From Escherichia phage phiP4: a DNA stretch of 64,000 nucleotides. The notes below the pieces were generated by a model. That model searched no databases. It had not been told where the DNA came from and saw only the letters and a list, made by a program, of their open reading frames with translations. The position numbers and the translations under genes were made by a program. Shown piece after piece: positions 1 through 22,360 of this stretch. The stretch lies in sequence record PP993145.1; one strand, 5' to 3'. Each line of letters opens with the position of its first letter. Positions within the stretch are counted from its first letter, which is position 1.

Positions 1-22
1 AGCGGCTAAAAAAGCACCGTTC

Positions 23-256
23 ATGATCAAAGGTTATATCGATACGCCGATTGGTCGCGTAGTAATCGCTAACCTGCTGAGTGTAGCGGTTGACCAGTAC
101 GCCCCGAGTAACCAGAAAGCGAAAGCGGTAGCGGGGGCGGCTATGGAAGCGGCAATGTTGGAAATGGTGCAAAGTTTTAACATCGCTGAGATGATCGATG
201 AAATGGTAAAAGGTATCGATATTTCTACTTTTACCAATAACACCGAAAACGAGTAA
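23..256 (+). CDS. hypothetical protein (77 aa)
   Basis: ORF track; upstream end of window, no recognisable motif. Confidence 0.4.
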   Translation: MIKGYIDTPIGRVVIANLLSVAVDQYAPSNQKAKAVAGAAMEAAMLEMVQSFNIAEMIDEMVKGIDISTFTNNTENE

Positions 257-376
257 TAACTAGCCCATTGTAAAGTTTTGTAAAGGCCGCCTTTTATGGT
301 GGCCTTTTTTGTTATAATGCCTTTACACCGTTTGAGGACGGTTGAAAATTTTCCCAAAAAATTTTGGAGGCTTAAA

Positions 377-607
377 ATGGTTGCTTTTTCTTCTTCTGAC
401 GCTCTTTTCACTGGAAAAGGCTGGGTATCAAATCGCTGGATTATTCAGGAAATGGTGCAAGAGTACGGCATTGCTAAAACTTATACTACCATTCAGGCGC
501 TTTATGATAATGATCAAATCGATCAGCAAACGGCGGGCTTTTTACTGGATACCCTGAAGGCGGAACACTGTACCAAAAAACAAGCCGCTAAAATTGTTTT
601 AATGTAA
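377..607 (+). CDS. hypothetical protein (about 76 aa; internal start of track ORF 296..607)
   Basis: GGAGG-type RBS a few nt upstream of ATG at 377. Confidence 0.4.
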   Translation: MVAFSSSDALFTGKGWVSNRWIIQEMVQEYGIAKTYTTIQALYDNDQIDQQTAGFLLDTLKAEHCTKKQAAKIVLM

Positions 608-656
608 TTAATAACGGGGCGAAAGTATCGCCCCACTAACTAGGGGAGTATCACAA

Positions 657-839
657 ATGATTATTTTTCGAGCTTTTTTAGCGGGTATCTTGGGAGCTAT
701 TTTGACCCTTTTCGCCACCGCTTACGGTATTCAGGATTCCTATTGCGGTTTGGTAAACACAAAACCTATGGTTACTATAGGCGCTGGTATCGCTGTATTT
801 TCTTATCTGCTGGGCTGCATGAATAGTAAAGGAGAATAA
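657..839 (+). CDS. small hydrophobic membrane protein (60 aa)
   Basis: ORF track; hydrophobic composition. Confidence 0.4.
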   Translation: MIIFRAFLAGILGAILTLFATAYGIQDSYCGLVNTKPMVTIGAGIAVFSYLLGCMNSKGE

Positions 840-841
840 AA

Positions 842-1054
842 ATGATCCGCAACGTTTCTCTTGCACGTTCGAAAGGTTTTAAGCTGGTGGACGCTAACAC
901 GTTCGAGCGTCCAGATTGCAAGATCGAATATGTAGCACGTAATAAAAATGCCTTTCGTGTTACCGAGAAAAAATTTGATAAGCGCGGCAACGTGATCCTT
1001 GAAACGGTTAGGCACTTTGCCACCTTTTACGCTGCATTTCGTGGGGTACTATGA
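842..1054 (+). CDS. hypothetical protein (70 aa)
   Basis: ORF track; tightly packed after previous ORF. Confidence 0.4.
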   Translation: MIRNVSLARSKGFKLVDANTFERPDCKIEYVARNKNAFRVTEKKFDKRGNVILETVRHFATFYAAFRGVL

Positions 1055-1290
1055 AAAGCGTTATTGTTGTTATCCTTGCAATGGCTGGCGGTTTTATCGC
1101 CACCTTATTTAAGAATGATCCCACTTCGTTGGGTATCTTTATGCTTTTATCGGGCTATCTGATCGGGAGGTTGTCAAATGATAGCGCAAATTAAAACGGC
1201 TTTTCGTTTTTGGGGCGTCCTGCCTTCAATTGGTTTTATTCTGATAATCATTAGTCAGCTAATGATTATCGTTGGCGTTATCTGGGAGCT

Positions 1291-1641
1291 ATGCAAATGA
1301 TCATTTACGAGGGCAATCGCTTTGTTGCTAATTGCCGCCCGGCATTGTTAGCAAACTATTTAAACCAGCTTTCACCAGCTTATAAGGGCGTTATTAATAT
1401 TTACGAGGGCAAGGCGCATTATAAAATCAATGCGGTCGTTGCCCGTGAACTAGCGTTTCAATTTTTAACCTTTGCATCTTGCGACGTTCAGGTTATGGGT
1501 GAGGCGTTAATTGCAGAAAATGAAGACGATTTTATTAATATTTTCCGTAAGGTATGCACCGAGCGCCTGATAATCAAAGGCGCATATATTCAATCCACGG
1601 CTGATAGTATTGAAACAGCGTTTCGAAAGGTGGCGCAATGA
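1291..1641 (+). CDS. hypothetical protein (116 aa)
   Basis: ORF track. Confidence 0.45.
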   Translation: MQMIIYEGNRFVANCRPALLANYLNQLSPAYKGVINIYEGKAHYKINAVVARELAFQFLTFASCDVQVMGEALIAENEDDFINIFRKVCTERLIIKGAYIQSTADSIETAFRKVAQ

Positions 1642-2017
1642 AACGATGGTTTAATCACTGGTACAAGCGGTTTTTAGTACGCCGTCGCAAGTCTAGGCAT
1701 CAAGATGAGTGGCGGGAGTGGGCAAAGCGTAACGGTTGCCCACTAATATAATAATCACGGGGCGCAACTATCAGGGAGTGCCCCCAATTTTCAAATGATA
1801 ATCATTCTCATTTGACCGCGCCCGCGATGGTTAGCCTGCTAATGGTTCGGGTGTTACGTGTCGCCTTGTGTGATCGTTAGCTCGCTAACTAATTTTCAAG
1901 CCTCCTCCAATTTTGCCCTTGTTTTAGTATCCCCACCAAAATTAAACGCGTTAGAATGCGTTTGAGAGCGTTTTAACGCTATATTAGAATTATTCGCTGC
2001 GTAGGAATACTGTATAT

Positions 2018-2117
2018 TTATCCAGTAGGATAAGCTGTGGATAAGTCTGTTAATAACGCCTCAAAATGGCTAGGGTTTTGTCAAGTCAAATCGTGCTGTT
2101 AATAAGTCTGTGGATAA
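2018..2117. promoter_or_regulatory. DnaA-box cluster: two perfect TGTGGATAA boxes (2036..2044, 2109..2117) plus a near-box TTATCCAGT (2018..2026)
   Basis: Exact 9-mer matches to the DnaA box consensus TTATCCACA (reverse complement) read directly. Confidence 0.6.
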
Positions 2118-2149
2118 CTTAAATAACAGTGTTTCTCACTTCCGTTCTT

Positions 2150-2350
2150 AAATGAGAATCATTATCATTTGTATTTCACTATCTAACTAATAATCATTCC
2201 ACTATCTAACTAATAATCATTCCACTTTCTAAATGAGAATCATTCCGCTTTTTAAATGAGAATCATTTCACTTTTTAAATGAGATTGATTCTCATTTCAC
2301 TTTCTAAATGCGAATTATTATCATTCTCATTCCGCTTTTTAAATGAGAAT
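2150..2350. repeat. cluster of palindromic iterons (AAATGAGAATCATT-type units, about 5 direct copies, plus tandem 24-bp units 2176..2223)
   Basis: Repeated units read directly; a related palindrome also at 1791..1813. Confidence 0.6.
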
Positions 2351-2400
2351 GATTCTTATTATCATTCGTATTTAGCGCAGAGCAATTGCTCTGCGCTTTT

Positions 2401-3000
2401 GTGCAAATCCGACATTGCTCCACGGGTGTTACGTGCGGGCGTGTATGTGCGAATCCGACAATTTTTGGTAGTGTGCAAATCCGACCCGAAAAATTTTTAT
2501 AGTGTGCAAATCCGACAATGAATTTTCCTAAAAACTCCAGCAATCCGATGCTGCGCATCAATCCTGTGGAATTAGCTAGAGTATGTGCAAATCCGACATG
2601 GGTTTATTTGTGCGAATCCGACAAGATTTTTGTGACTTCGATTGGAGGGTGTGTGATTGTGTGGGTTTGGGGAGAAGTTGAGAGAGCGAGAGAAAATAAG
2701 AGGAGAAGCTAGAGGGGCAGCAGTGGTGGCGTGCAACGCCTGATTTGCTGCGTTTTTGGGGAGAGTTGAAAAGATTTGGGTTAATTTGAGATTAGTGGAG
2801 ATAAAGTAAAATTTTATTAGCAAAATGGGGCAAAATAGCTTGACAAGTGAAAATTTCTGTGGCTCTAAAAACTCAGGCAATCACGGGCCTTCGGCCCGAA
2901 ATAATGCTGCCATTTTCAGGAGATTATATGTTCCTAAAAACTTAGGCAATTGTGCAAATCCGACCATAAATTTCTAGAAACACAATGTGCAAATCCGACA
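2401..3000 (+). repeat. eight same-orientation copies of the 14-bp motif GTGC(A/G)AATCCGACA at about 2401, 2448, 2474, 2504, 2585, 2600, 2953, 2987
   Basis: Motif copies read directly; irregular spacing of 15..350 bp; no ORF support. Confidence 0.6.
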
Positions 3001-3473
3001 GTAATTTCTGGAAATGTGTTTTCAAAAAATGTCTCCTAGAAATAACCGCCCTCCCCATAACCGCCCTGTATTAAACCGCCTAGTATATGTTCCTAGAAAC
3101 TTGGGAGAACCGCCCACTAGAAGCGTGAGATCTCGTGAGTATTTCGTGAGAACTCTGGAGTTTCTAGGAAAGTGTTGTGCCATCCTAGCAGATGAGCGGC
3201 AACCGGTGTATCATCTTGAATGTAAATTATGTGGTCAAAAGTTTTACCTTTAATTTAAGTATAAGATCCCCCAAGATTGGAAGAGATGCTCCACCCCTGG
3301 GATACGAATTGCGTGAGATGGTACAAAACTTCTTAAGATTTCCCTAGTCCTTCGACAAGCTACGGGGGAAATAGAAGTTTCCCATCCACCATCCGTATCC
3401 GGGTGGATCTCTTTATTCTATGTTATTTCATAGAGTTATTATAACATGCAGAAATCATAACGTCAAGTAGAGT

Positions 3474-4364
3474 TTATTCATCGAACATGAGATTTCCTTT
3501 CATCCCCATCTCCGCATACTCCATGAGTTCTTTGATGGATCTCACGGGGTAATCTACTTTACTAAAGTTATCATAGATCTTACATGAACTCTCATACAAC
3601 TCGTTAGGTATCTGCAATTTGTTATCTGTTAGCTTCTCATAACGTGCAGAAGAATTTGTACCGTCAAACAGAACTGCGATAACTGCGGCGATTTGTTTAG
3701 TAAGATCATCTGCTCCTAGAATTATTCTATTAATAGCAATCGTTACTTCATGCTTAGGTTTAGCAGGTGGAAGGATAGGTTTGAGATCCTTAGGTAAAGG
3801 TTCTGTTCCTAGGAATCCTTCTTTTGTGCGGAACCAATAATTATCTAGATCAGATATCGTCTTAGACTTATTCCAAATAGTGAAGCAGGGTTTATTTCCT
3901 TCACGATCTCTGTATTCACGAATTGGAAGGTAATGATCAGGGAATGAATTGAGTGCATCATGCATCGGTGAGCCTGTCTTTTTGAATGACAAACCATACA
4001 ACTCATTATAATTCATAACTTCATCTTCGTAAACATGGAAATCTTTATATGCTGGAAGATTAAACCATTCCTGAAGTGAATGAACTGCAAAACGTTGTGC
4101 CCAAGCATGCATCACTAGAACTCTGTATTCTTTTACTTCATCTTTTGGAGAAGTACCTTTAGCTGTTCTAGCTGAACGAATACAGAACATCTCAACAACA
4201 CGTTTCTCATTTAAAGAGAGTTCAGAATAACAACGTTCATGGCAACCTTCTAGCATTTCTAGAAGTTCACGTAGTTTCTCTACATCGACCGGTGGAAAAG
4301 GTCTTTCTTCAACTGCGAATTTACCAGTTACACCTTTTGGTTTTCTATTACTATAAAATCCCAT
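3474..4364 (-). CDS. hypothetical protein (296 aa)
   Basis: ORF track; first gene of the minus-strand block. Confidence 0.55.
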   Translation of the reverse strand: MGFYSNRKPKGVTGKFAVEERPFPPVDVEKLRELLEMLEGCHERCYSELSLNEKRVVEMFCIRSARTAKGTSPKDEVKEYRVLVMHAWAQRFAVHSLQEWFNLPAYKDFHVYEDEVMNYNELYGLSFKKTGSPMHDALNSFPDHYLPIREYRDREGNKPCFTIWNKSKTISDLDNYWFRTKEGFLGTEPLPKDLKPILPPAKPKHEVTIAINRIILGADDLTKQIAAVIAVLFDGTNSSARYEKLTDNKLQIPNELYESSCKIYDNFSKVDYPVRSIKELMEYAEMGMKGNLMFDE

Positions 4365-4966
4365 TAATTACCTCTCTTATCTTCATTAATAGCAGCTCCC
4401 AACGCTTCAAGGATAGCATCACTCATACTCCCAGGCTTAAGATTATTAAAGTGAGTAACATAAATGGGACTTCTAAAACCCTTAGCATCCGCAGGTGCTA
4501 CGCTTCGCATATCAGATTCAAAAGCTTCTTGAGTGTGTTTCAACTGTACAGAAGGGCCGTAATCTTCCCCAAACTTATATGACTGCGTACTACTTACCAC
4601 ACTCCCACAAGGAACATTGTGCAAATCCGGTGATTTATTTAGCATTGAGATTGTCCCTGACTGCCACGGATCTCTAATAGTCACTGGAGTACTAGGGCGG
4701 TTCACCTCAGTCTTCACAAGTTTATATCCTGCATCGATTAATACGTTAATTAGATTATCAGCTGGGATGCGAGCCTTACCAAAAATCTTACGAGCATCTT
4801 CGAGCTTATCCTCAAGATCTTTACACGCTCTAAGGTCAGTGTGTGCAAATGTTAGCTTCATGGATTTGAATTGTACAGTAGCAGTTAGATCTTTAAAGCT
4901 ATAATCCCATGTGTTCAGTTCATGGTCTGGTACTACTTGAATAGATTGTTGTACATTAAAAGTCAT
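4364..4966 (-). CDS. hypothetical protein (200 aa)
   Basis: ORF track; stop/start junction with neighbours. Confidence 0.55.
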   Translation of the reverse strand: MTFNVQQSIQVVPDHELNTWDYSFKDLTATVQFKSMKLTFAHTDLRACKDLEDKLEDARKIFGKARIPADNLINVLIDAGYKLVKTEVNRPSTPVTIRDPWQSGTISMLNKSPDLHNVPCGSVVSSTQSYKFGEDYGPSVQLKHTQEAFESDMRSVAPADAKGFRSPIYVTHFNNLKPGSMSDAILEALGAAINEDKRGN

Positions 4967-5151
4967 TATTTATTCTCCAGTTTGTCTAATAGCTTATGAG
5001 CTGCTAGATTATATTGTTTGAGTTCACGATTAAGGATTTGATTCTCACACTTTAGCTCTAGATTCTTATTATTAAGAATATTGCAGATTAGTAGAAGTGC
5101 TAATATTAGTAACAGAGAACCTACGAGCATTAAAAGAAAAAGAGTTTCCAT
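4966..5151 (-). CDS. small membrane protein (61 aa)
   Basis: ORF track; hydrophobic N-terminus. Confidence 0.45.
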   Translation of the reverse strand: METLFLLMLVGSLLLILALLLICNILNNKNLELKCENQILNRELKQYNLAAHKLLDKLENK

Positions 5152-5591
5152 TATTTTATCTCCATTCTTAACTTTGAAAACTTATTATACCAAACTATAT
5201 GATTATCGTCAATTACAAATTTATGATAACATGCTGGTACGGTATAAGTTCCATAATCTGTGACACGCTGCACAACCTTGTGTGCACACAGTCGACAACC
5301 ATGCCCTTCTAAATGAGATCTAGCAGTTTGCCAGTAATAACCATCATGATCTGGACAATAGATCTCGACTTGCTGTTGCATTGTTTTGTAATTTACACGC
5401 TCATATCCAAAGAAAGCTCCATGAACTGCAACAGCTTTCTTGATAAATATAAGGTTTAGTGCTTCTTGTTGAAAGTCGGGATGTAGCTGCTTAATCTTAG
5501 TTCTATTAATAGATCCATCCGATTTGATGAACCTATTTATTGGAAAGTTGTTAGCTTCCTCGATTAGTAATTCATTTACTTTTTCTCTCAT
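5151..5591 (-). CDS. hypothetical Cys/His-containing protein (track ORF 5151..5693; start moved to ATG at 5591)
   Basis: Track ORF overlaps the upstream ORF by 100 nt; internal ATG at 5589..5591 removes the overlap. Confidence 0.45.
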   Translation of the reverse strand: MREKVNELLIEEANNFPINRFIKSDGSINRTKIKQLHPDFQQEALNLIFIKKAVAVHGAFFGYERVNYKTMQQQVEIYCPDHDGYYWQTARSHLEGHGCRLCAHKVVQRVTDYGTYTVPACYHKFVIDDNHIVWYNKFSKLRMEIK

Positions 5592-5592
5592 A

Positions 5593-5817
5593 TTATATAC
5601 TCTCACAGCTAAGGTAAAAACATTCGTAAGCATCACCAGTAAACTCTTTATCTTGTAGTATACATTTAGCCTGGTCTTCTGGTACTCCGGCATCTAATAA
5701 TTGTTGTTTACTTGGCTTTTCAGCGAATACTTTTACAAAATATTCACCATCCTGATTATACTCATTTATATCTCTAGTAAGGACATATAATTGCATCTGA
5801 AGTTCCTTGAAACACAA
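5593..5817 (-). CDS. hypothetical protein (74 aa)
   Basis: ORF track. Confidence 0.4.
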   Translation of the reverse strand: MCFKELQMQLYVLTRDINEYNQDGEYFVKVFAEKPSKQQLLDAGVPEDQAKCILQDKEFTGDAYECFYLSCESI

Positions 5818-5850
5818 AAGGCCAGAACAATTAAGTCCTGGCCTCTAGAA

Positions 5851-6222
5851 TTAATGAAGTTGTTTACCACTTCTTAAAATAGTGGCCGTTTCCATAAGAT
5901 TTAACGTTGTATCACGCTTTTTGATTTGTTTGTCGAGTTCATCGGTACGTTTGCCAATGTAAGCGTTAATAGCCATATTCATAGCGGAGGCGAGATCTTC
6001 TTTGGTTATCTCTTCGTCATCTAAGGCTAATTTAGCCAAAGAATCGAAAGTACTAGAAAGTCCTATAAGATCAGAAGCTTCCCCAGCCAAAATAGGGTTA
6101 ACATTATCTATTGTTACTTCTAGCATAGAGTTAACAATATCTTCTCCGTCTACTAGACCAGATTCAATATTACTCTCCCATTCCTTCATCTGCTCCAGCA
6201 ATGGATTTTTCTTTTCTGTCAT
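5851..6222 (-). CDS. hypothetical acidic protein (123 aa)
   Basis: ORF track. Confidence 0.5.
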   Translation of the reverse strand: MTEKKNPLLEQMKEWESNIESGLVDGEDIVNSMLEVTIDNVNPILAGEASDLIGLSSTFDSLAKLALDDEEITKEDLASAMNMAINAYIGKRTDELDKQIKKRDTTLNLMETATILRSGKQLH

Positions 6223-6631
6223 GGTAGAGGTTTCCTGTGTCAGTTGGTAAGAAGGACGATTGAGCTTTAGGCGGATGTTGTTTAGTAATCCAGTTAAGAA
6301 TCAGTACACGACTAGGAACAATATCAGTGTTGCACCAAAAATCATGAACCCATTGACGAGCATCCTCAAACTTACCAAATTTATATGCTTTCTTAAATAA
6401 TTCAAACCCAAAACAATCTGGTGTAAAGTCTACTTCACGATATTGAATTACTTTAGAACCAGTTAGGTCTTGGATCGCTGCATTAATTTCTGTATGCGAG
6501 AATTTTGTTTCGTGAAACTTATTAAAGAATCGGTAGTTGAAGCGTCCGTTCGTTTCGACAAACAACTGGATGAAGAGATCGTTAAATTGGTTATCAAACC
6601 AGTAATTCTGTAGTTGTTGTAGTGCTGTCAT
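6170..6631 (-). CDS. hypothetical protein (153 aa)
   Basis: ORF track. Confidence 0.5.
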   Translation of the reverse strand: MTALQQLQNYWFDNQFNDLFIQLFVETNGRFNYRFFNKFHETKFSHTEINAAIQDLTGSKVIQYREVDFTPDCFGFELFKKAYKFGKFEDARQWVHDFWCNTDIVPSRVLILNWITKQHPPKAQSSFLPTDTGNLYHDRKEKSIAGADEGMGE

Positions 6632-6828
6632 TTACGAACTCCGTTAATTGCCACGATGATGCCTTCGTACATAAAAGGAAGTAGCCCAGAAGTATAGAAG
6701 ATATTTTCCGTTATTCCTAGATGTCGAAAAAGTATATTAAATAACGCTGTTAGAAATACAATCTGAGGCAGTAATACAAAATATTCAGTTACAATCTTTG
6801 GTGCCTGATAAACAAGACGTTTTATCAT
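6628..6828 (-). CDS. small membrane protein (66 aa)
   Basis: ORF track; hydrophobic. Confidence 0.4.
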   Translation of the reverse strand: MIKRLVYQAPKIVTEYFVLLPQIVFLTALFNILFRHLGITENIFYTSGLLPFMYEGIIVAINGVRK

Positions 6829-6927
6829 TGTTTTTAAGTCTCCTTATTACTTTGGCCTGCTCCACAATAATAAAAACTGCAAGCACTAATAGTGCTATTA
6901 GCCCAGCAGTAACTGGTACTAAATCAA

Positions 6928-7254
6928 TCATGGGAGACGCCACACGTAATTAGCTGTCTGTAGGATCTTAGTGGTATCATCATGGTACATTACTACAGAC
7001 TTTGGTGAATAGCTATCAGCTAGTTCTTTACGAATCATTTCACACTCTTCACCAGTATCAATATTTTTAACTATCACTTTCATATTAAGTGGTGTTAATA
7101 CAGAAAGTGGTTTCCAAGAGTCCTCAATTTCAATCCCTACCTTTTTCTCGATTAACATGAGGACTTCTAATGTATCGTCCGGAATACTAATATTATTATT
7201 CACAAACTGTAATATCTCATGTAAGGTATTTAATTCATTAAAATTAAGCTTCAT
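6928..7254 (-). CDS. hypothetical protein (108 aa)
   Basis: ORF track. Confidence 0.5.
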   Translation of the reverse strand: MKLNFNELNTLHEILQFVNNNISIPDDTLEVLMLIEKKVGIEIEDSWKPLSVLTPLNMKVIVKNIDTGEECEMIRKELADSYSPKSVVMYHDDTTKILQTANYVWRLP

Positions 7255-7489
7255 CTTTAAGAATATCCTCTACCATATCACAAGACTGTTGCAATTCATC
7301 CGCAATTCGTTTAATATCGGTTTTTGTTACTTTACCAACTAACATCACCAGTAACATAGAAAAGATAATAAGTGGAACTGGAATAACAAATAAAGCTACC
7401 TTAACAACATTCTTTGGTGCCCATGTGTGGTACTTAGTAACCAGTACACCAACCACAATTAGATAAAACGCTAGAATAAACATCATCAT
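7244..7489 (-). CDS. membrane protein (81 aa)
   Basis: ORF track; two hydrophobic segments. Confidence 0.45.
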   Translation of the reverse strand: MMMFILAFYLIVVGVLVTKYHTWAPKNVVKVALFVIPVPLIIFSMLLVMLVGKVTKTDIKRIADELQQSCDMVEDILKDEA

Positions 7490-7767
7490 TTTTTAATCTC
7501 CGTAATTATCTGTGCACGCATTACTTTATTAGGTAATTTTGTATTCCCAGCTATTGCTTCAATATTGTTTAGTTTTTCTTTTAGAATATCTGAGCGTCTT
7601 TGCGCTAGTTCAATATCTTGTTCTTGTTCTATTAAGCGACAGTGGAGTCCACTATTAGTAATAAGCATACTCTCCATGTTTTTTCGTATGCTTACAATAC
7701 CAATAACCCCACCAATCGCTGCTAGTGTCATAAGCACTAGCAATCCAATGAGAATTTCAATTAACAT
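7486..7767 (-). CDS. membrane protein with N-terminal TM segment (93 aa)
   Basis: ORF track. Confidence 0.45.
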   Translation of the reverse strand: MLIEILIGLLVLMTLAAIGGVIGIVSIRKNMESMLITNSGLHCRLIEQEQDIELAQRRSDILKEKLNNIEAIAGNTKLPNKVMRAQIITEIKK

Positions 7768-7930
7768 TAAATACCCCTACATTTTTCGTTATCCGGGACT
7801 AATTTACACATTTCTACATTTAACTCATGGAGAGATTTGTCTACCTCAGTTAAGTGTACGTTAAGAGCAACTATATTATATATTAGTGTTCCTATAAGGA
7901 ATGACAGTATTGAAATTGATACCCTTTCCA

Positions 7931-8200
7931 TTATTTCTTACCTTTCAGTTGCTTAACTTCACGCTCAAAAGATGCTGCACGACGTTCGGCAGTTGCCTGA
8001 TGTTCTTTCGCAAAACGTGCTTCCTGTTTTGCTAGGTTGAACGCCATAGCATTCTTATTCAGGGAATCATACATCTTTTTCATTGCCGGGATAGACATCT
8101 TCATGAGCTGGCCTTCAAAACCCTGCATGTCGAGGAGAATTGCCAGAACGTTAGCCATTTCATTTTTAGTCATGTTTTCCATTAGAATTTCCTCTCTCAT
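7931..8200 (-). CDS. hypothetical protein (89 aa)
   Basis: ORF track; promoter 8215..8243 immediately upstream. Confidence 0.5.
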   Translation of the reverse strand: MREEILMENMTKNEMANVLAILLDMQGFEGQLMKMSIPAMKKMYDSLNKNAMAFNLAKQEARFAKEHQATAERRAASFEREVKQLKGKK

Positions 8201-8214
8201 TAACTTATGAACTT

Positions 8215-8243
8215 ATTATACAGAATTTTAAGGCTTAAAGCAA
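8215..8243 (-). promoter_or_regulatory. sigma70-type early promoter (TTGCTT-N17-TATAAT on minus strand)
   Basis: -10 complement ATTATA at 8215..8220, -35 complement AAGCAA at 8238..8243, 17-nt spacer. Confidence 0.6.
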
Positions 8244-8260
8244 CTGAATTTTTTAATTAC

Positions 8261-8689
8261 TTACCAATCGTTAACGAAACCTGAGAACTCAGAAGCCAAT
8301 ACTTGCTCAAATTTTTCTGCAATTTCAGGATGATTTTTGCAAATCAGTTCAATGCACGCTTCTGGCGTCATCCCATCATCTTCAGGATTACCATAGTATT
8401 TATCCCAAAGATCATCAGGAATGATGCGTTCAGCGAGGTCTTGGAAATAAACTGCCTGATACCGTGGAGCCTCTTCAGCAAAAAGTTCTTCGATCTCTTC
8501 GTCTGCCTCACCTCTGTAATCTGCCATTAATAGGGCATCAGTTGCGTAACATTCCCAGACCATCAAGCGTTCAGAGATAGGGTTAGACTTATCCTGAACG
8601 TAGGACTGGAACAAGGTTCGGAAAGTTGCCTTAACTTGTTCAAACTTATCTGCTGCTGCGAAAACTAGAGCTTTATCAACTTTGTTCAT
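8261..8689 (-). CDS. hypothetical acidic protein (142 aa)
   Basis: ORF track; promoter 8720..8748 upstream. Confidence 0.5.
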   Translation of the reverse strand: MNKVDKALVFAAADKFEQVKATFRTLFQSYVQDKSNPISERLMVWECYATDALLMADYRGEADEEIEELFAEEAPRYQAVYFQDLAERIIPDDLWDKYYGNPEDDGMTPEACIELICKNHPEIAEKFEQVLASEFSGFVNDW

Positions 8690-8719
8690 TTTGATTCCTT
8701 CTAATCAATTTATAAAGTA

Positions 8720-8748
8720 ATTATACAGAAACTTAAGCATTTTAGCAA
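8720..8748 (-). promoter_or_regulatory. sigma70-type early promoter (TTGCTA-N17-TATAAT)
   Basis: Hexamers and 17-nt spacer read directly. Confidence 0.6.
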
Positions 8749-8856
8749 ATAAAACTTTTAATTAAAATGCCTAATCCCGTGCCAATAGCAATACAAATGA
8801 TTATAAGTATTGCTATCGCTTGTATGACTCGTTTAATAATAGCCTCAGCTATATAC

Positions 8857-9378
8857 TTAGACATTTAACATCCAGCTAGTTTTATCATGTGAGGTATACT
8901 TACCACTCATGATGTCTTCCAGACGTACTGGTGATTTTGCATATTCGACACAAACGTTAATATAACGAGGATCCCCCATTAGCTCAAAGTGAGTATGCCC
9001 ATGTAAATTCTTCTTACCTCTCAGCTCCCCATGGTGTATTGGAGCATGGGAAAGCCAGAAGTTTTTATACTTAACTAGTGATTGTACGTTATCTACAACC
9101 CCTATTAAGTCTTTGAAAGATAATCCTTCTCGTTCTAAGTCGTGGTTTCCCAAAACTAACGTAGTTCTAACATTGCCAAAGAGTTTTTCGAACTTTTCCA
9201 AACCATTTCTAGATACAAATGCGTCTCCTAAAATATAGAATACTGTACGCTTATCTTTCACGGATGTAATAGTATCCATAATAAATTCGTCATGCTCTTC
9301 CATAGTAGAGAAGATTGGTCTGAATTTAGTAATATTTGCATGCCCCAAGTGGAGATCACTCCAAAAACAAACTTTCAT
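8857..9378 (-). CDS. calcineurin-like metallophosphoesterase (173 aa)
   Basis: Motifs GDAF..., GNHD, GHTH typical of the metallophosphatase fold. Confidence 0.65.
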   Translation of the reverse strand: MKVCFWSDLHLGHANITKFRPIFSTMEEHDEFIMDTITSVKDKRTVFYILGDAFVSRNGLEKFEKLFGNVRTTLVLGNHDLEREGLSFKDLIGVVDNVQSLVKYKNFWLSHAPIHHGELRGKKNLHGHTHFELMGDPRYINVCVEYAKSPVRLEDIMSGKYTSHDKTSWMLNV

Positions 9379-10253
9379 TAAAGAACCCTCTGTACACCAC
9401 AGCTATCTTCCCGGAGTGTAGTAAATGTGGTGATTTTGCCCGTTTCATCGTTAACTTGCGCAACCGTCAACTGCCCGTTGAAAACACCGCCAGTATCAAG
9501 ATAAACACGGTTTTTATAGAGAAGTGGATAAGGAACCCCAGTATGTCCGTGAAACACGAAATCTACCCCTTTAACTTCTGGTACTTCTACCGTGTATTTT
9601 TCTTTAAATCCTGCGTAACGCTGGAAATATGGGTGTTCTTCTCCATTTTTGGACAAGTGGAAGCCTATTTCTTGGATTACATCTCGATCCCATAAATATG
9701 GCTCAACATGGTATCCAGGATGGTCATGTGGGTCTTCCTTAGCTGCTTCTACTTGCGCAATAAGATTATCCCATACTGGGGTTTCTACCTCATTACCACA
9801 TTCTTTGTATGTAAAAGGTACACCACCGTGAACAACACCAAATTTCTTACCACGATGTCTAACAGTTAGGAATATTGGCATTTTTTCAGCCATATCTTCG
9901 GCAATATTTTTAATGGTGTCTGCATCCAGCTCATTCATAGCCCACATACCACCGTTATACATCCAATTAGCCCAATCTCCCACAATCATAAATTGATCAT
10001 GATTACCACGGACACTGATAAAACGTGGATTATACAGGAATTTGGCTAAAACTTGTAGGTTTTGTGTGCCTCGGTCTATTAAGTCTCCGACACATACTAC
10101 GCAATCTTTTTTGCTATTATACCCAGCTAATTTCAACGCATCTTCTAGCAAATCATTGCATCCATGAATATCACCAACGAAAAACAAGTTGGCCTCATCC
10201 GGCACTACTAGAGTTTTATGTACATTAAATTCTTTTTTCATAATTATTCCCAA
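9378..10253 (-). CDS. serine/threonine protein phosphatase (PPP family, 291 aa)
   Basis: Motifs GDIHG, GDLIDRG, RGNHD match the PPP signature GDxHG / GDxxDRG / GNHE. Confidence 0.7.
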   Translation of the reverse strand: MGIIMKKEFNVHKTLVVPDEANLFFVGDIHGCNDLLEDALKLAGYNSKKDCVVCVGDLIDRGTQNLQVLAKFLYNPRFISVRGNHDQFMIVGDWANWMYNGGMWAMNELDADTIKNIAEDMAEKMPIFLTVRHRGKKFGVVHGGVPFTYKECGNEVETPVWDNLIAQVEAAKEDPHDHPGYHVEPYLWDRDVIQEIGFHLSKNGEEHPYFQRYAGFKEKYTVEVPEVKGVDFVFHGHTGVPYPLLYKNRVYLDTGGVFNGQLTVAQVNDETGKITTFTTLREDSCGVQRVL

Positions 10254-22186: not shown

Positions 22187-22360
22187 TTATAAACCAGCAG
22201 AAGCCTCATTTAAAGCATCAACAATAGCTTCACGTTGGGTCATTCCATACCCGGTGGAATCTAGGTGTGGCAAATAAGCCATCCATCCCTTATCTGTTTC
22301 ATGAAGACATGCTTTAAATTTTTTACCATCCTTCATTGTTACAGTAACTGTTTTGCTCAT
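22187..22360 (-). CDS. small protein (57 aa) with HicB-like antitoxin fold signature
   Basis: Hand-translated MSKTVTVTMKDGKKFKACLHETDKGWMAYLPHLDSTGYGMTQREAIVDALNEASAGL; AAGGAA-type RBS. Confidence 0.4.
   Translation of the reverse strand: MSKTVTVTMKDGKKFKACLHETDKGWMAYLPHLDSTGYGMTQREAIVDALNEASAGL

What the first reader, a model, noticed from the sequence alone, without database searches (positions are those of the whole stretch)
2401..3000. Eight direct copies of a 14-bp motif GTGC(A/G)AATCCGACA
All eight copies are in one orientation with irregular spacing (15 to 350 bp), and a degenerate ninth copy sits inside the gene at 4617..4630. This looks like an array of binding sites for a sequence-specific protein rather than a tandem or CRISPR repeat.
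Basis: seen in the sequence. Interest (0 to 1): 0.7.

Follow-up and report, generated by a model that had tools for sequence, protein, structure and literature searches.

The report
Phage T5 "DRD" repeat array
The eight repeats are real and are the already catalogued "direct repeat D" copies at the DNA-injection stop and terminal-repeat boundary of phage T5 relatives; they look like docking sites for a still unidentified protein, possibly the one that restarts DNA injection.

Summary
Eight same-strand copies of (T)GTGCRAATCCGAC(A/C) lie at window 2400-3000, against about 0.4 expected by chance. The window is a T5-like phage (Demerecviridae). The copies are the "direct repeat D" (DRD) elements annotated in GenBank AY587007, inside T5's injection-stop-signal region. 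The feature is therefore already known, but no function has been assigned and 2026 papers still call the mechanism unknown.

What I add:
- The motif has sharp edges and is far better conserved than its spacers (95% vs 81% pairwise identity). It persists in Klebsiella, Pectobacterium-type and Vibrio relatives whose spacers cannot be aligned.
- Every copy in every genome examined lies on one strand.
- The array always starts a few bases after a conserved CTGCGC, which is T5's 7.9% nick site.
- It is always split into two clusters by a G-rich gap that contains the right end of the terminal repeat.
- T5 has extra same-strand copies inside genes T5.019 and D13.
- Some distant lineages carry altered motifs.

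Best reading (about 0.35): binding sites for pre-early protein A2, needed to restart DNA transfer. A2 models as a Myb/GcrA-like helix-turn-helix protein. Main rival (about 0.25): small-terminase sites marking the repeat-end cut. Neither is shown.

The parts
2400..2414 (+). DRD copy 1 (TGTGCAAATCCGACA)
   Evidence: Homologous to T5 'direct repeat D copy 1'. Starts 4 nt after the GCGC of the nick site.
2446..2460 (+). DRD copy 2 (TGTGCGAATCCGACA)
2472..2486 (+). DRD copy 3 (TGTGCAAATCCGACC)
2503..2517 (+). DRD copy 4
2584..2598 (+). DRD copy 5
2609..2623 (+). DRD copy 6 (last copy inside the terminal repeat)
2624..2850 (+). G-rich, C-poor gap between the two DRD clusters
   Evidence: GC skew +0.6 to +0.7 over 2600-2850. 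G-rich gaps sit in the same place in Klebsiella, Vibrio, Aeromonas and Proteus relatives (sequences).
2801..2915 (.). Conserved core around the right end of the terminal repeat; the end is predicted between 2865 and 2866 (..ttctgtggctc|taaaaactcagg..)
   Evidence: 94% pairwise identity in 21 genomes. It is the only part of 2380-3010 that blastn still matches in Klebsiella phages. The end is placed by homology to T5 LTR 1-10219, and the repeat ends annotated in phiR2-01 and EscoHU1 map to the same place.
2951..2965 (+). DRD copy 7 (unique side of the repeat end)
2986..3000 (+). DRD copy 8
4618..4632 (+). Degenerate in-gene copy (TGTGCAAATCCGgtg), antisense to the T5.019 homologue (ORF 4364..4966, - strand)
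   Evidence: T5 has TGTGCAAATCCGACG here. Conserved in 19 loci, with variation only at third codon positions.
2374..2400 (+). Hairpin plus T-run (agcgcagagcaattgctctgcgctttt) ending the last rightward pre-early transcription unit. It holds the GCGC of the predicted 7.9% nick (- strand, between 2396 and 2397).
   Evidence: Sequence. T5 'major DNA single-chain interruption' at 9748/9749 and palindrome J. CTGCGC precedes the first copy in every lineage read.
2036..2117 (+). Two pairs of DnaA-type boxes (TGTGGATAA gtc TGTTAATAA at 2036-2056; TGTTAATAA gtc TGTGGATAA at 2097-2117), upstream neighbours of the array
   Evidence: Sequence. Described for T5-like phages by Davison 2020. Also present in the Vibrio, Aeromonas and Proteus relatives.

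Best explanation
The copies are the DRD repeats of the T5-type injection-stop / terminal-repeat-end region. They form a one-directional array of recognition sites for a sequence-specific DNA-binding protein encoded by the phage. My most likely candidate is the pre-early protein A2. Proposed course of events: the left 8% of the genome enters and transfer pauses with the DRD array at or just outside the point of entry. A2 is made from the DNA that has already entered. A2 then binds the sites one after another as they become accessible, probably together with the membrane-associated A1, and this allows the remaining 92% to be drawn in. The same sites in the right repeat could let A2 pair the two terminal repeats. 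Shown here: the array exists, is non-coding, is selectively conserved, is polar, and has a fixed place relative to the nick site and the repeat end across the family. Inferred: that a protein binds it. Speculative: that the protein is A2 and that binding restarts transfer.
Confidence: 0.35

Rival explanations
1. Packaging signal. The two DRD clusters are binding sites for the small terminase subunit. They bracket the site where the terminase cuts concatemers to make the right end of the terminal repeat. Because the left end is ejected first, this would be the first DNA packaged. That would make the array comparable to lambda cosB, P1 pac or SPP1 pacL/pacR.
For: The repeat end lies in the large gap between the clusters in every lineage where it is known: T5, phiR2-01 and EscoHU1, a Klebsiella phage, a My1-type phage and Vibrio Thalassavirus phages. 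The core around the end is as conserved as the motif (94%) and is the only blastn-detectable piece in Klebsiella phages. Six copies lie about 240-470 bp from the right genome end. T5-type small terminase has the same family-wide distribution. From memory, repeats flanking a cut site are the P1 pac design.
Against: The predicted helix-turn-helix stretch of the small terminase varies among lineages that share the identical 13-nt core. Its invariant positions stay mostly unchanged in Vibrio 70E37-3 and Proteus, where the motif changes. The distance from cluster to repeat end varies widely: 89 to 365 bp on one side and 2 to 246 bp on the other. No DRD lies near the left end of the repeat. Terminase sites usually diverge quickly between related phages (general knowledge).
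Confidence: 0.25
2. Replication origin. The DRDs act as iterons for a phage initiator, for example the UL9-like helicase D2 (T5.108), working with the neighbouring DnaA boxes and the AT-rich repeats. The pair inside D13 would be a second origin.
For: Same-orientation repeats lie next to paired DnaA boxes and an AT-rich tandem region. T5.108 matches the herpesvirus origin-binding protein family (PMC3632103). T5 is reported to use multiple origins (cited). Extra copies lie at 78.9 kb in T5. From memory only, the reverse complement of the G-variant motif shares TTCGCAC with the HSV UL9 box.
Against: Origins were mapped near the middle of the genome, and the replication genes are not expressed while only the first-step DNA is inside (Davison). 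Spacing is irregular, and no initiator gene is adjacent. The Pfam match of T5.108 covers only its helicase part. The test for DNA-level constraint on the D13 pair was inconclusive.
Confidence: 0.1
3. Host-factor or virion roadblock. The DRDs are the stop signal itself. A conserved host protein, or a protein carried in the virion, holds the DNA there until A1 and A2 release it.
For: The array lies in the annotated injection-stop region. The stop needs no new protein synthesis. The motif is unchanged across hosts from Escherichia to Vibrio, as expected for a conserved host reader. The span of the T5 array, about 740 bp, is close to my own rough estimate, not checked here, of the DNA held in a T5 tail.
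Against: No known host consensus fits. The motif matches the reverse-complemented relaxed DnaA box at 8 of 9 positions, but its first T is not kept in Vibrio or My1-type phages while CCGAC, outside the box, is. Purified receptor triggers complete release in vitro. Aeromonas and some Vibrio phages have changed motifs, which argues against a universal host reader.
Confidence: 0.1

Closest known systems
T5 'direct repeat D' (DRD) copies 1-9 in Repeat Region 3 / injection stop signal (Heusterspreute 1987; Wang 2005, GenBank AY587007; Davison 2015, 2020)
   Same: Same sequence, same order and spacing, and the same place between the last pre-early terminator/7.9% nick and the first early gene. The window is 88% identical to T5 over this stretch.
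   Different: The window has 8 copies. T5's ninth intergenic copy falls in a stretch absent from the window. The published descriptions I could read (Davison 2020; the AY587007 annotation) list the repeats without assigning a function and do not mention the copies in T5.019 and D13.
Terminase recognition sites built from repeats that flank or adjoin the cut (P1 pac hexamers, lambda cosB R sites, SPP1 pacL/pacR boxes); from memory
   Same: Short repeated elements in two clusters on either side of a genome-end cut site, with a conserved core at the cut.
   Different: The gap is much longer (267-611 bp) and the distances vary. All copies point one way. The site is conserved across genera while the terminase helix-turn-helix stretch is not. 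Binding is untested.
Plasmid and phage origin iterons with DnaA boxes
   Same: Direct repeats in one orientation beside DnaA boxes and AT-rich DNA.
   Different: Spacing is irregular, there is no adjacent initiator gene, and the array straddles a genome end.
T7 SRL/SRR short-repeat arrays next to its terminal repeat; from memory, not checked here
   Same: Arrays of short direct repeats beside the terminal repeat of a phage with direct terminal repeats and stepwise genome entry; their function is also unclear.
   Different: Unrelated phage, a different motif and a 160-bp repeat. No homology was tested.
Myb/GcrA-type helix-turn-helix proteins reading asymmetric sites as monomers (relevant to candidate reader A2)
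   Same: The N-terminal domain of the A2 model superposes on GcrA, MogR, Rap1 and c-Myb DNA-binding domains.

Membership tests
T5 DRD repeats (injection-stop region, Repeat Region 3) | Sequence matches the annotated 'direct repeat D' copies | tested here: met
   The AY587007 features 'direct repeat D copy 1-9' coincide with the motif matches. The window copies are identical or differ at one base.
T5 DRD repeats (injection-stop region, Repeat Region 3) | Homologous genomic position: after the pre-early genes and the 7.9% nick, spanning the right end of the left terminal repeat, before the first early gene | tested here: met
   Gene order in the window is shown.
T5 DRD repeats (injection-stop region, Repeat Region 3) | The region acts in cis to stop DNA transfer at about 8% | not testable with these tools
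   This is an experimental property. Even for T5 the exact stop element is undefined.
Protein-binding site array | Motif conserved more than spacers, with sharp boundaries, across diverged genomes | tested here: met
   (95.1% vs 81.2%, p = 1e-12). Searches show the same in other genera.
Protein-binding site array | A protein shown to bind the motif | not testable with these tools
   No paper in the library contains the sequence. Recent papers call the mechanism unknown.
Terminase pac/cos recognition site | Repeats adjoin the genome-end cleavage site | tested here: met
   The repeat end falls between the clusters in T5, phiR2-01, EscoHU1, Klebsiella, My1-type and Thalassavirus genomes.
Terminase pac/cos recognition site | The DNA-reading part of the small terminase tracks the site | tested here: inconclusive
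   The helix-turn-helix stretch varies while the motif is constant. 6 of 40 invariant positions change in each of two variant lineages, and about 8 of the roughly 31 covered in Aeromonas. G92 changes in all three.
Replication-origin iterons | Regularly spaced direct repeats next to an initiator gene, DnaA boxes and an AT-rich unwinding region | tested here: inconclusive
   DnaA boxes and an AT-rich tandem region are present upstream. Spacing is irregular and no initiator gene is adjacent.
CRISPR array | Repeats of about 21-48 nt at near-constant period with unique spacers of similar length | tested here: not met
   The unit is 15 nt and the spacings run from 25 to 342 bp.
Tandem repeat / satellite | Head-to-tail copies | tested here: not met
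   TRF reports only a 2.7-copy, 71%-match stretch at 2446-2519.
DnaA box | 9-mer TTWTNCACA (reverse complement TGTGNAWAA) | tested here: not met
   TGTGCAAAT matches 8 of 9 positions and the G variant 7 of 9. The conserved block extends 6 nt further (CCGACA), and its first T is G or A in Vibrio and My1-type phages.
tRNA gene / T-arm | Cloverleaf detected; T-loop GTTCRAATCC flanked by a 5-bp stem | tested here: not met
   ARAGORN finds nothing in 1800-3700. The motif differs from the T-arm consensus by one base, and exact matches in unrelated phage contigs are real tRNA genes.
Protein-coding sequence | Open reading frame kept in relatives | tested here: not met
   The ORFs over the array are intact in 1/20, 1/20, 4/20 and 11/20 relatives, with frame-breaking length changes. 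T5 is annotated as non-coding here.

The most novel reading that the evidence does not exclude
The DRD array is the long-sought cis element of two-step DNA transfer in T5-like phages. It would be a family-wide, one-directional track of sites read by the Myb/GcrA-like protein A2. A2 would bind the sites in turn as they enter and so pull the DNA in, or pair the two terminal repeats. The placement of the array around the repeat end would mean that one DNA-protein assembly serves both genome entry and genome-end formation.
Probability: 0.3. Interest if true: 0.7.

Novelty: already known. Interest (0 to 1): 0.4.

Why it matters
How T5 stops DNA injection at 8% and restarts it has been an open question since the 1960s, and papers from 2026 still call the mechanism unknown. 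The repeats themselves are not new. What this analysis adds is that one specific 13-15-nt polar motif is the most deeply conserved element of that region, from Escherichia to Vibrio phages. Its place is fixed relative to the nick site and the end of the terminal repeat. It has two concrete candidate readers, A2 and the small terminase. That turns a catalogue entry into a cheap, decisive experiment: a gel shift with an oligonucleotide, plus DRD mutants made with the reverse genetics now available for T5.

Tried and rejected
- **CRISPR or tandem repeat:** rejected on unit length and spacing.
- **Coding sequence:** rejected for the array, because the ORFs are not conserved.
- **Structured RNA or tRNA:** nothing in Rfam above threshold and no tRNA. 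The motif resembles a tRNA T-arm, and exact matches elsewhere in the viral collection are tRNA genes.
- **DnaA box:** rejected (see the membership test).
- **Determinant of the major nicks:** rejected. Only the nick at 9748 is adjacent to the motif (4 nt); the one at 78573 lies about 360 bp from the D13 pair, and those at 22336 and 39746 have no motif nearby.
- **DNA-level constraint on the D13 pair:** inconclusive. Third-codon diversity is lower inside the pair (0.036 vs 0.136), but 5 of 10 third positions vary. A Vibrio D13 carries GCGCAAATCCGAC at the same place in another reading frame, which is only weakly significant.
- **In-gene T5.019 copy:** its conservation can be explained by coding.
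- **Covariation of A2 and small terminase with motif variants:** suggestive for A2 but not clean; the pVp-1-like exception is.
- **Proteus phage PL1:** no clear array was found de novo.
- **Host-genome search for the motif:** not attempted. A 15-mer is too short for the BLAST collections, and a pattern scan of the genome collection would return mostly chance hits.
- **Older papers:** Davison 2015 and Bourguignon 1976 are not held, and I did not look up Heusterspreute 1987 or Snyder & Benzinger 1981. What I say about the last two, and about P1, lambda, SPP1, T7 and UL9 sites, is from memory.

Full report
**Observation.** The motif GTGCRAATCCGACA occurs with at most one mismatch at window 2401, 2447, 2473, 2504, 2585, 2610, 2952 and 2987, always on the + strand. 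With up to two mismatches, shuffles of the window give 0.38 matches on average and never 10. A T precedes every copy, so the unit is the 15-mer TGTGCRAATCCGAC(A/C). Start-to-start spacings are 46, 26, 31, 81, 25, 342 and 35 bp.

**Identity of the window.** The region matches 450 phage records at 80-95% identity, all T5-like (Salmonella and Escherichia phages). In the T5 reference the homologous stretch is the "injection stop signal (iss)" at 9140-10149. That feature lies at the right end of the 10,219-bp left terminal repeat, and a major single-strand nick is annotated at 9748/9749.
- The other T5 record, AY587007 (Wang et al. 2005), annotates nine "direct repeat D" copies that coincide exactly with this motif.
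[quoted passage not shown] He discusses DnaA boxes and inverted repeats but gives the DRDs no role.
- No paper in the library contains the motif string.

The feature is therefore known and named, but functionally unassigned.

**Anatomy in the window (from unless stated).**
- Rightward pre-early ORFs end near 1641.
- Two pairs of DnaA-type boxes follow at 2036-2056 and 2097-2117.
- An AT-rich tandem region of TTAAATGAGAATCATT-like units runs from 2140 to 2370.
- A hairpin with a T-run at 2374-2400 contains the GCGC that is nicked in T5. The predicted nick is between 2396 and 2397 on the - strand.
- DRD copies 1-6 lie at 2400-2623.
- A G-rich, C-poor tract follows, with GC skew +0.6 to +0.7 over 2600-2850.
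- By homology the terminal repeat ends between 2865 and 2866.
- DRD copies 7-8 lie at 2951-3000.
- Leftward early genes start at 3474.

The array therefore sits between convergent transcription units. The mechanical ORFs over it are broken in most relatives. No Rfam family and no tRNA is present.

**Evidence that the motif itself is selected.**
- In an alignment of 21 distinct Tequintavirus- and Epseptimavirus-type arrays, motif columns have 95.1% mean pairwise identity. The remaining columns of 2400-3000 have 81.2% (Mann-Whitney p = 1e-12). Counts over 164 sites show near-invariant positions bounded by unconstrained ones.
- In Klebsiella phage Shiner, blastn detects only about 75 bp around the repeat end. 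Yet about ten copies of TGTGCAAATCCGACA-like sequence are present with entirely different spacers.
- The same holds for My1-type genomes and a second Klebsiella phage.
- Vibrio Thalassavirus phages carry GGTGCAAATCCGAC arrays although their A1 protein is only 31% identical to T5's.
- In every locus all copies share one strand.
- T5 as a whole has 18 copies with at most two mismatches, all on the + strand: six in each terminal repeat, three just right of the left repeat, one in T5.019 and a tandem pair in D13.

**Fixed relations to other elements.**
- CTGCGC, the nick-site sequence, immediately precedes the first copy in T5, Klebsiella, Vibrio, Aeromonas and Proteus phages.
- Where genome ends are recorded, the right end of the terminal repeat always falls in the large gap between a left and a right cluster:
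  - T5: 243 bp after copy 6 and 86 bp before copy 7.
  - phiR2-01 and EscoHU1: the same homologous point.
  - A Klebsiella phage: 169 bp after its fifth copy.
  - A My1-type phage: 365 bp after the last good copy of its left cluster.
  - Thalassavirus phages: about 89 bp after the last left-cluster copy.
- The core around the end (window 2801-2915) is 94% conserved.

**Variant lineages.**
- Aeromonas phage AhSzw-1 has two clusters of GTACTTATCCGAC- and GTAGAAATTCGAC-type repeats in the same place.
- Vibrio phage 70E37-3 has tandem ATGTGCGAAACCTAT units.
- JSF10 has GTGCAAAACCGAY on the left and GTGCTAATTCGAT on the right of a 552-bp G-rich gap.
- Proteus phage PL1 keeps one GTGCGTAATCGAC after CTGCGC but has no clear array.

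**Who reads it?** I compared two family-specific candidates: A2 (homologues in 892 records, all apparently Demerecviridae) and the small terminase (909 records).
- A2 is an essential DNA-binding protein required for second-step transfer, with no known target.
- It has no solved relative.
- Its AlphaFold model (pLDDT 84.5) has three parts: an N-terminal three-helix domain, a flexible basic linker and a C-terminal helical domain.
- The A2 blocks VRSKL (third helix), YQK and RKxHYVR are invariant in nine sequences from the lineages I grouped as canonical. They are altered in Aeromonas, 70E37-3, JSF10 and Proteus.
- In the three variant lineages aligned (Aeromonas, 70E37-3, Proteus), 8-10 of 29 invariant A2 positions change. 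For the small terminase the figure is 6 of 40 in two of them, and about 8 of the roughly 31 covered in Aeromonas.
- The presumed helix-turn-helix stretch of the small terminase differs among lineages that share the identical motif.
- The signal is not clean. The pVp-1-like phage, one of those nine, keeps the A2 blocks although most of its copies read GTGCAAATTCTAT. The small terminase also has one position (G92) changed in all three aligned variants. The variant lineages are also simply the most distant ones.

**Weighing the explanations.** I rank A2 first, at about 0.35. My reasons are its function, its timing, its restriction to this family, its fold, the conservation of its likely recognition helix, and the start of the array at the estimated end of the first-step DNA. 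The terminase reading, at about 0.25, best explains why the repeat end always lies within the array and why its core is so conserved. It resembles P1 pac and lambda cosB (from memory). It is weakened by the variable terminase helix and by the very variable distances to the cut. An origin with iterons read by the UL9-like helicase D2 is possible, at about 0.1. It conflicts with origin mapping as cited by Davison. A host or virion roadblock also gets about 0.1. It fits the "stop signal" label, but no known consensus matches, and the motif changes in some lineages. A dual role in entry and end formation is not excluded.

**Extra copies.** It varies only at third codon positions, so coding may explain it. 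The D13 pair (GTGCAAATCCTACAgGTGCAAATCCGACA, encoding VQILQVQIRQ) is present in all 28 close relatives sampled. Its third-codon diversity is four-fold lower than that of the flanks, but the number of variable sites is ordinary. A pVp-1-like Vibrio D13 carries GCGCAAATCCGAC at the same place in a different reading frame. These remain leads.

**Verdict.** The feature is the already described T5 DRD array. Its function is still open, and it can be tested directly.

Noticed in passing
window 1237-2363: Fur-box-like sequences are clustered here. 13 of the window's 20 matches to GATAATGATAATCATTATC (at most 5 mismatches) fall in this 1.1 kb, against about 4.75 expected for the whole window in shuffles. 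Most lie in the TTAAATGAGAATCATT(ATCATT) repeats at 2140-2370. T5's receptor FhuA belongs to the iron (Fur) regulon, so Fur binding to the first-step DNA may be worth testing.
   Followed up: partly
window 2600-2850: A strongly G-rich, C-poor tract (GC skew +0.6 to +0.7) lies between the two DRD clusters, just left of the predicted repeat end. G-rich tracts sit in the same place in Klebsiella, Vibrio, Aeromonas and Proteus relatives despite having no alignable sequence.
   Followed up: partly
window 3438-3466 (- strand): A near-consensus promoter (TTGACG, 17-nt spacer, TATAAT, with a TG upstream) lies just downstream of the last early gene and reads leftward into the non-coding region toward the array. 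Terminator-like sites on the - strand lie at 3284-3267 and 2553-2538. By eye, equivalent TTGACA-17-TATCAT and TTGACA-17-TAGAAT sites are present in T5 and Klebsiella phage Shiner. This may be an unannotated small transcript.
   Followed up: partly
T5 NC_005859 78935-78964 (L003 28935-28964), outside the window: A tandem pair of the motif lies inside gene D13 (SbcC-like) on the same strand as all other copies, about 360 bp from the 64.8% nick. It is conserved in 28 of 28 close relatives. The AY587007 repeat annotation and the Davison 2020 text I read list only nine copies and do not mention it.
   Followed up: partly
window 2393-2397, and the homologous sites in L006, L116, L287, L288 and L290: CTGCGC, the sequence of T5's 7.9% nick, directly precedes the first repeat copy in every lineage examined. 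This includes Aeromonas and Proteus phages, whose repeat motif has changed or been lost.
   Followed up: partly
window 3042-3115: Three to four copies of (A)AACCGCC(C) lie just right of the array. Similar AACCGCCC copies occur at the equivalent place in T5, Klebsiella Shiner, Aeromonas AhSzw-1 and Proteus PL1. This may be a second conserved short motif.
   Followed up: no
window 2525-2544, 2861-2884, 2931-2950: A second repeat family, TTCCTAAAAACTYAGGCAAT-like, is present. One copy starts exactly at the predicted end of the terminal repeat. On the - strand the 2525-2544 copy reads as a hairpin followed by GAGTTTTTAG.
   Followed up: no
T5 termini (L002 1-20; L004 21730-21750): Read outward, the two genome ends look alike: ...GGCAGTGGACA at the left end and ...TTCTGTGGCTC at the right end. 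This may be a shared cleavage motif. No DRD lies near the left end.
   Followed up: no
L287 2034-2372 (Aeromonas phage AhSzw-1, - strand): The small-terminase reading frame has four in-frame stop codons at otherwise conserved positions, and the record annotates only fragments. This suggests stop-codon reassignment or suppression, or else sequence errors.
   Followed up: no
window 25138, 27298, 32146; L175, L191, L234: The motif differs by one base from the tRNA T-arm consensus GTTCRAATCC. Weak matches in the window are the phage's own tRNA genes. Exact 14-mer matches in unrelated viral contigs lie in tRNA clusters.
   Followed up: yes
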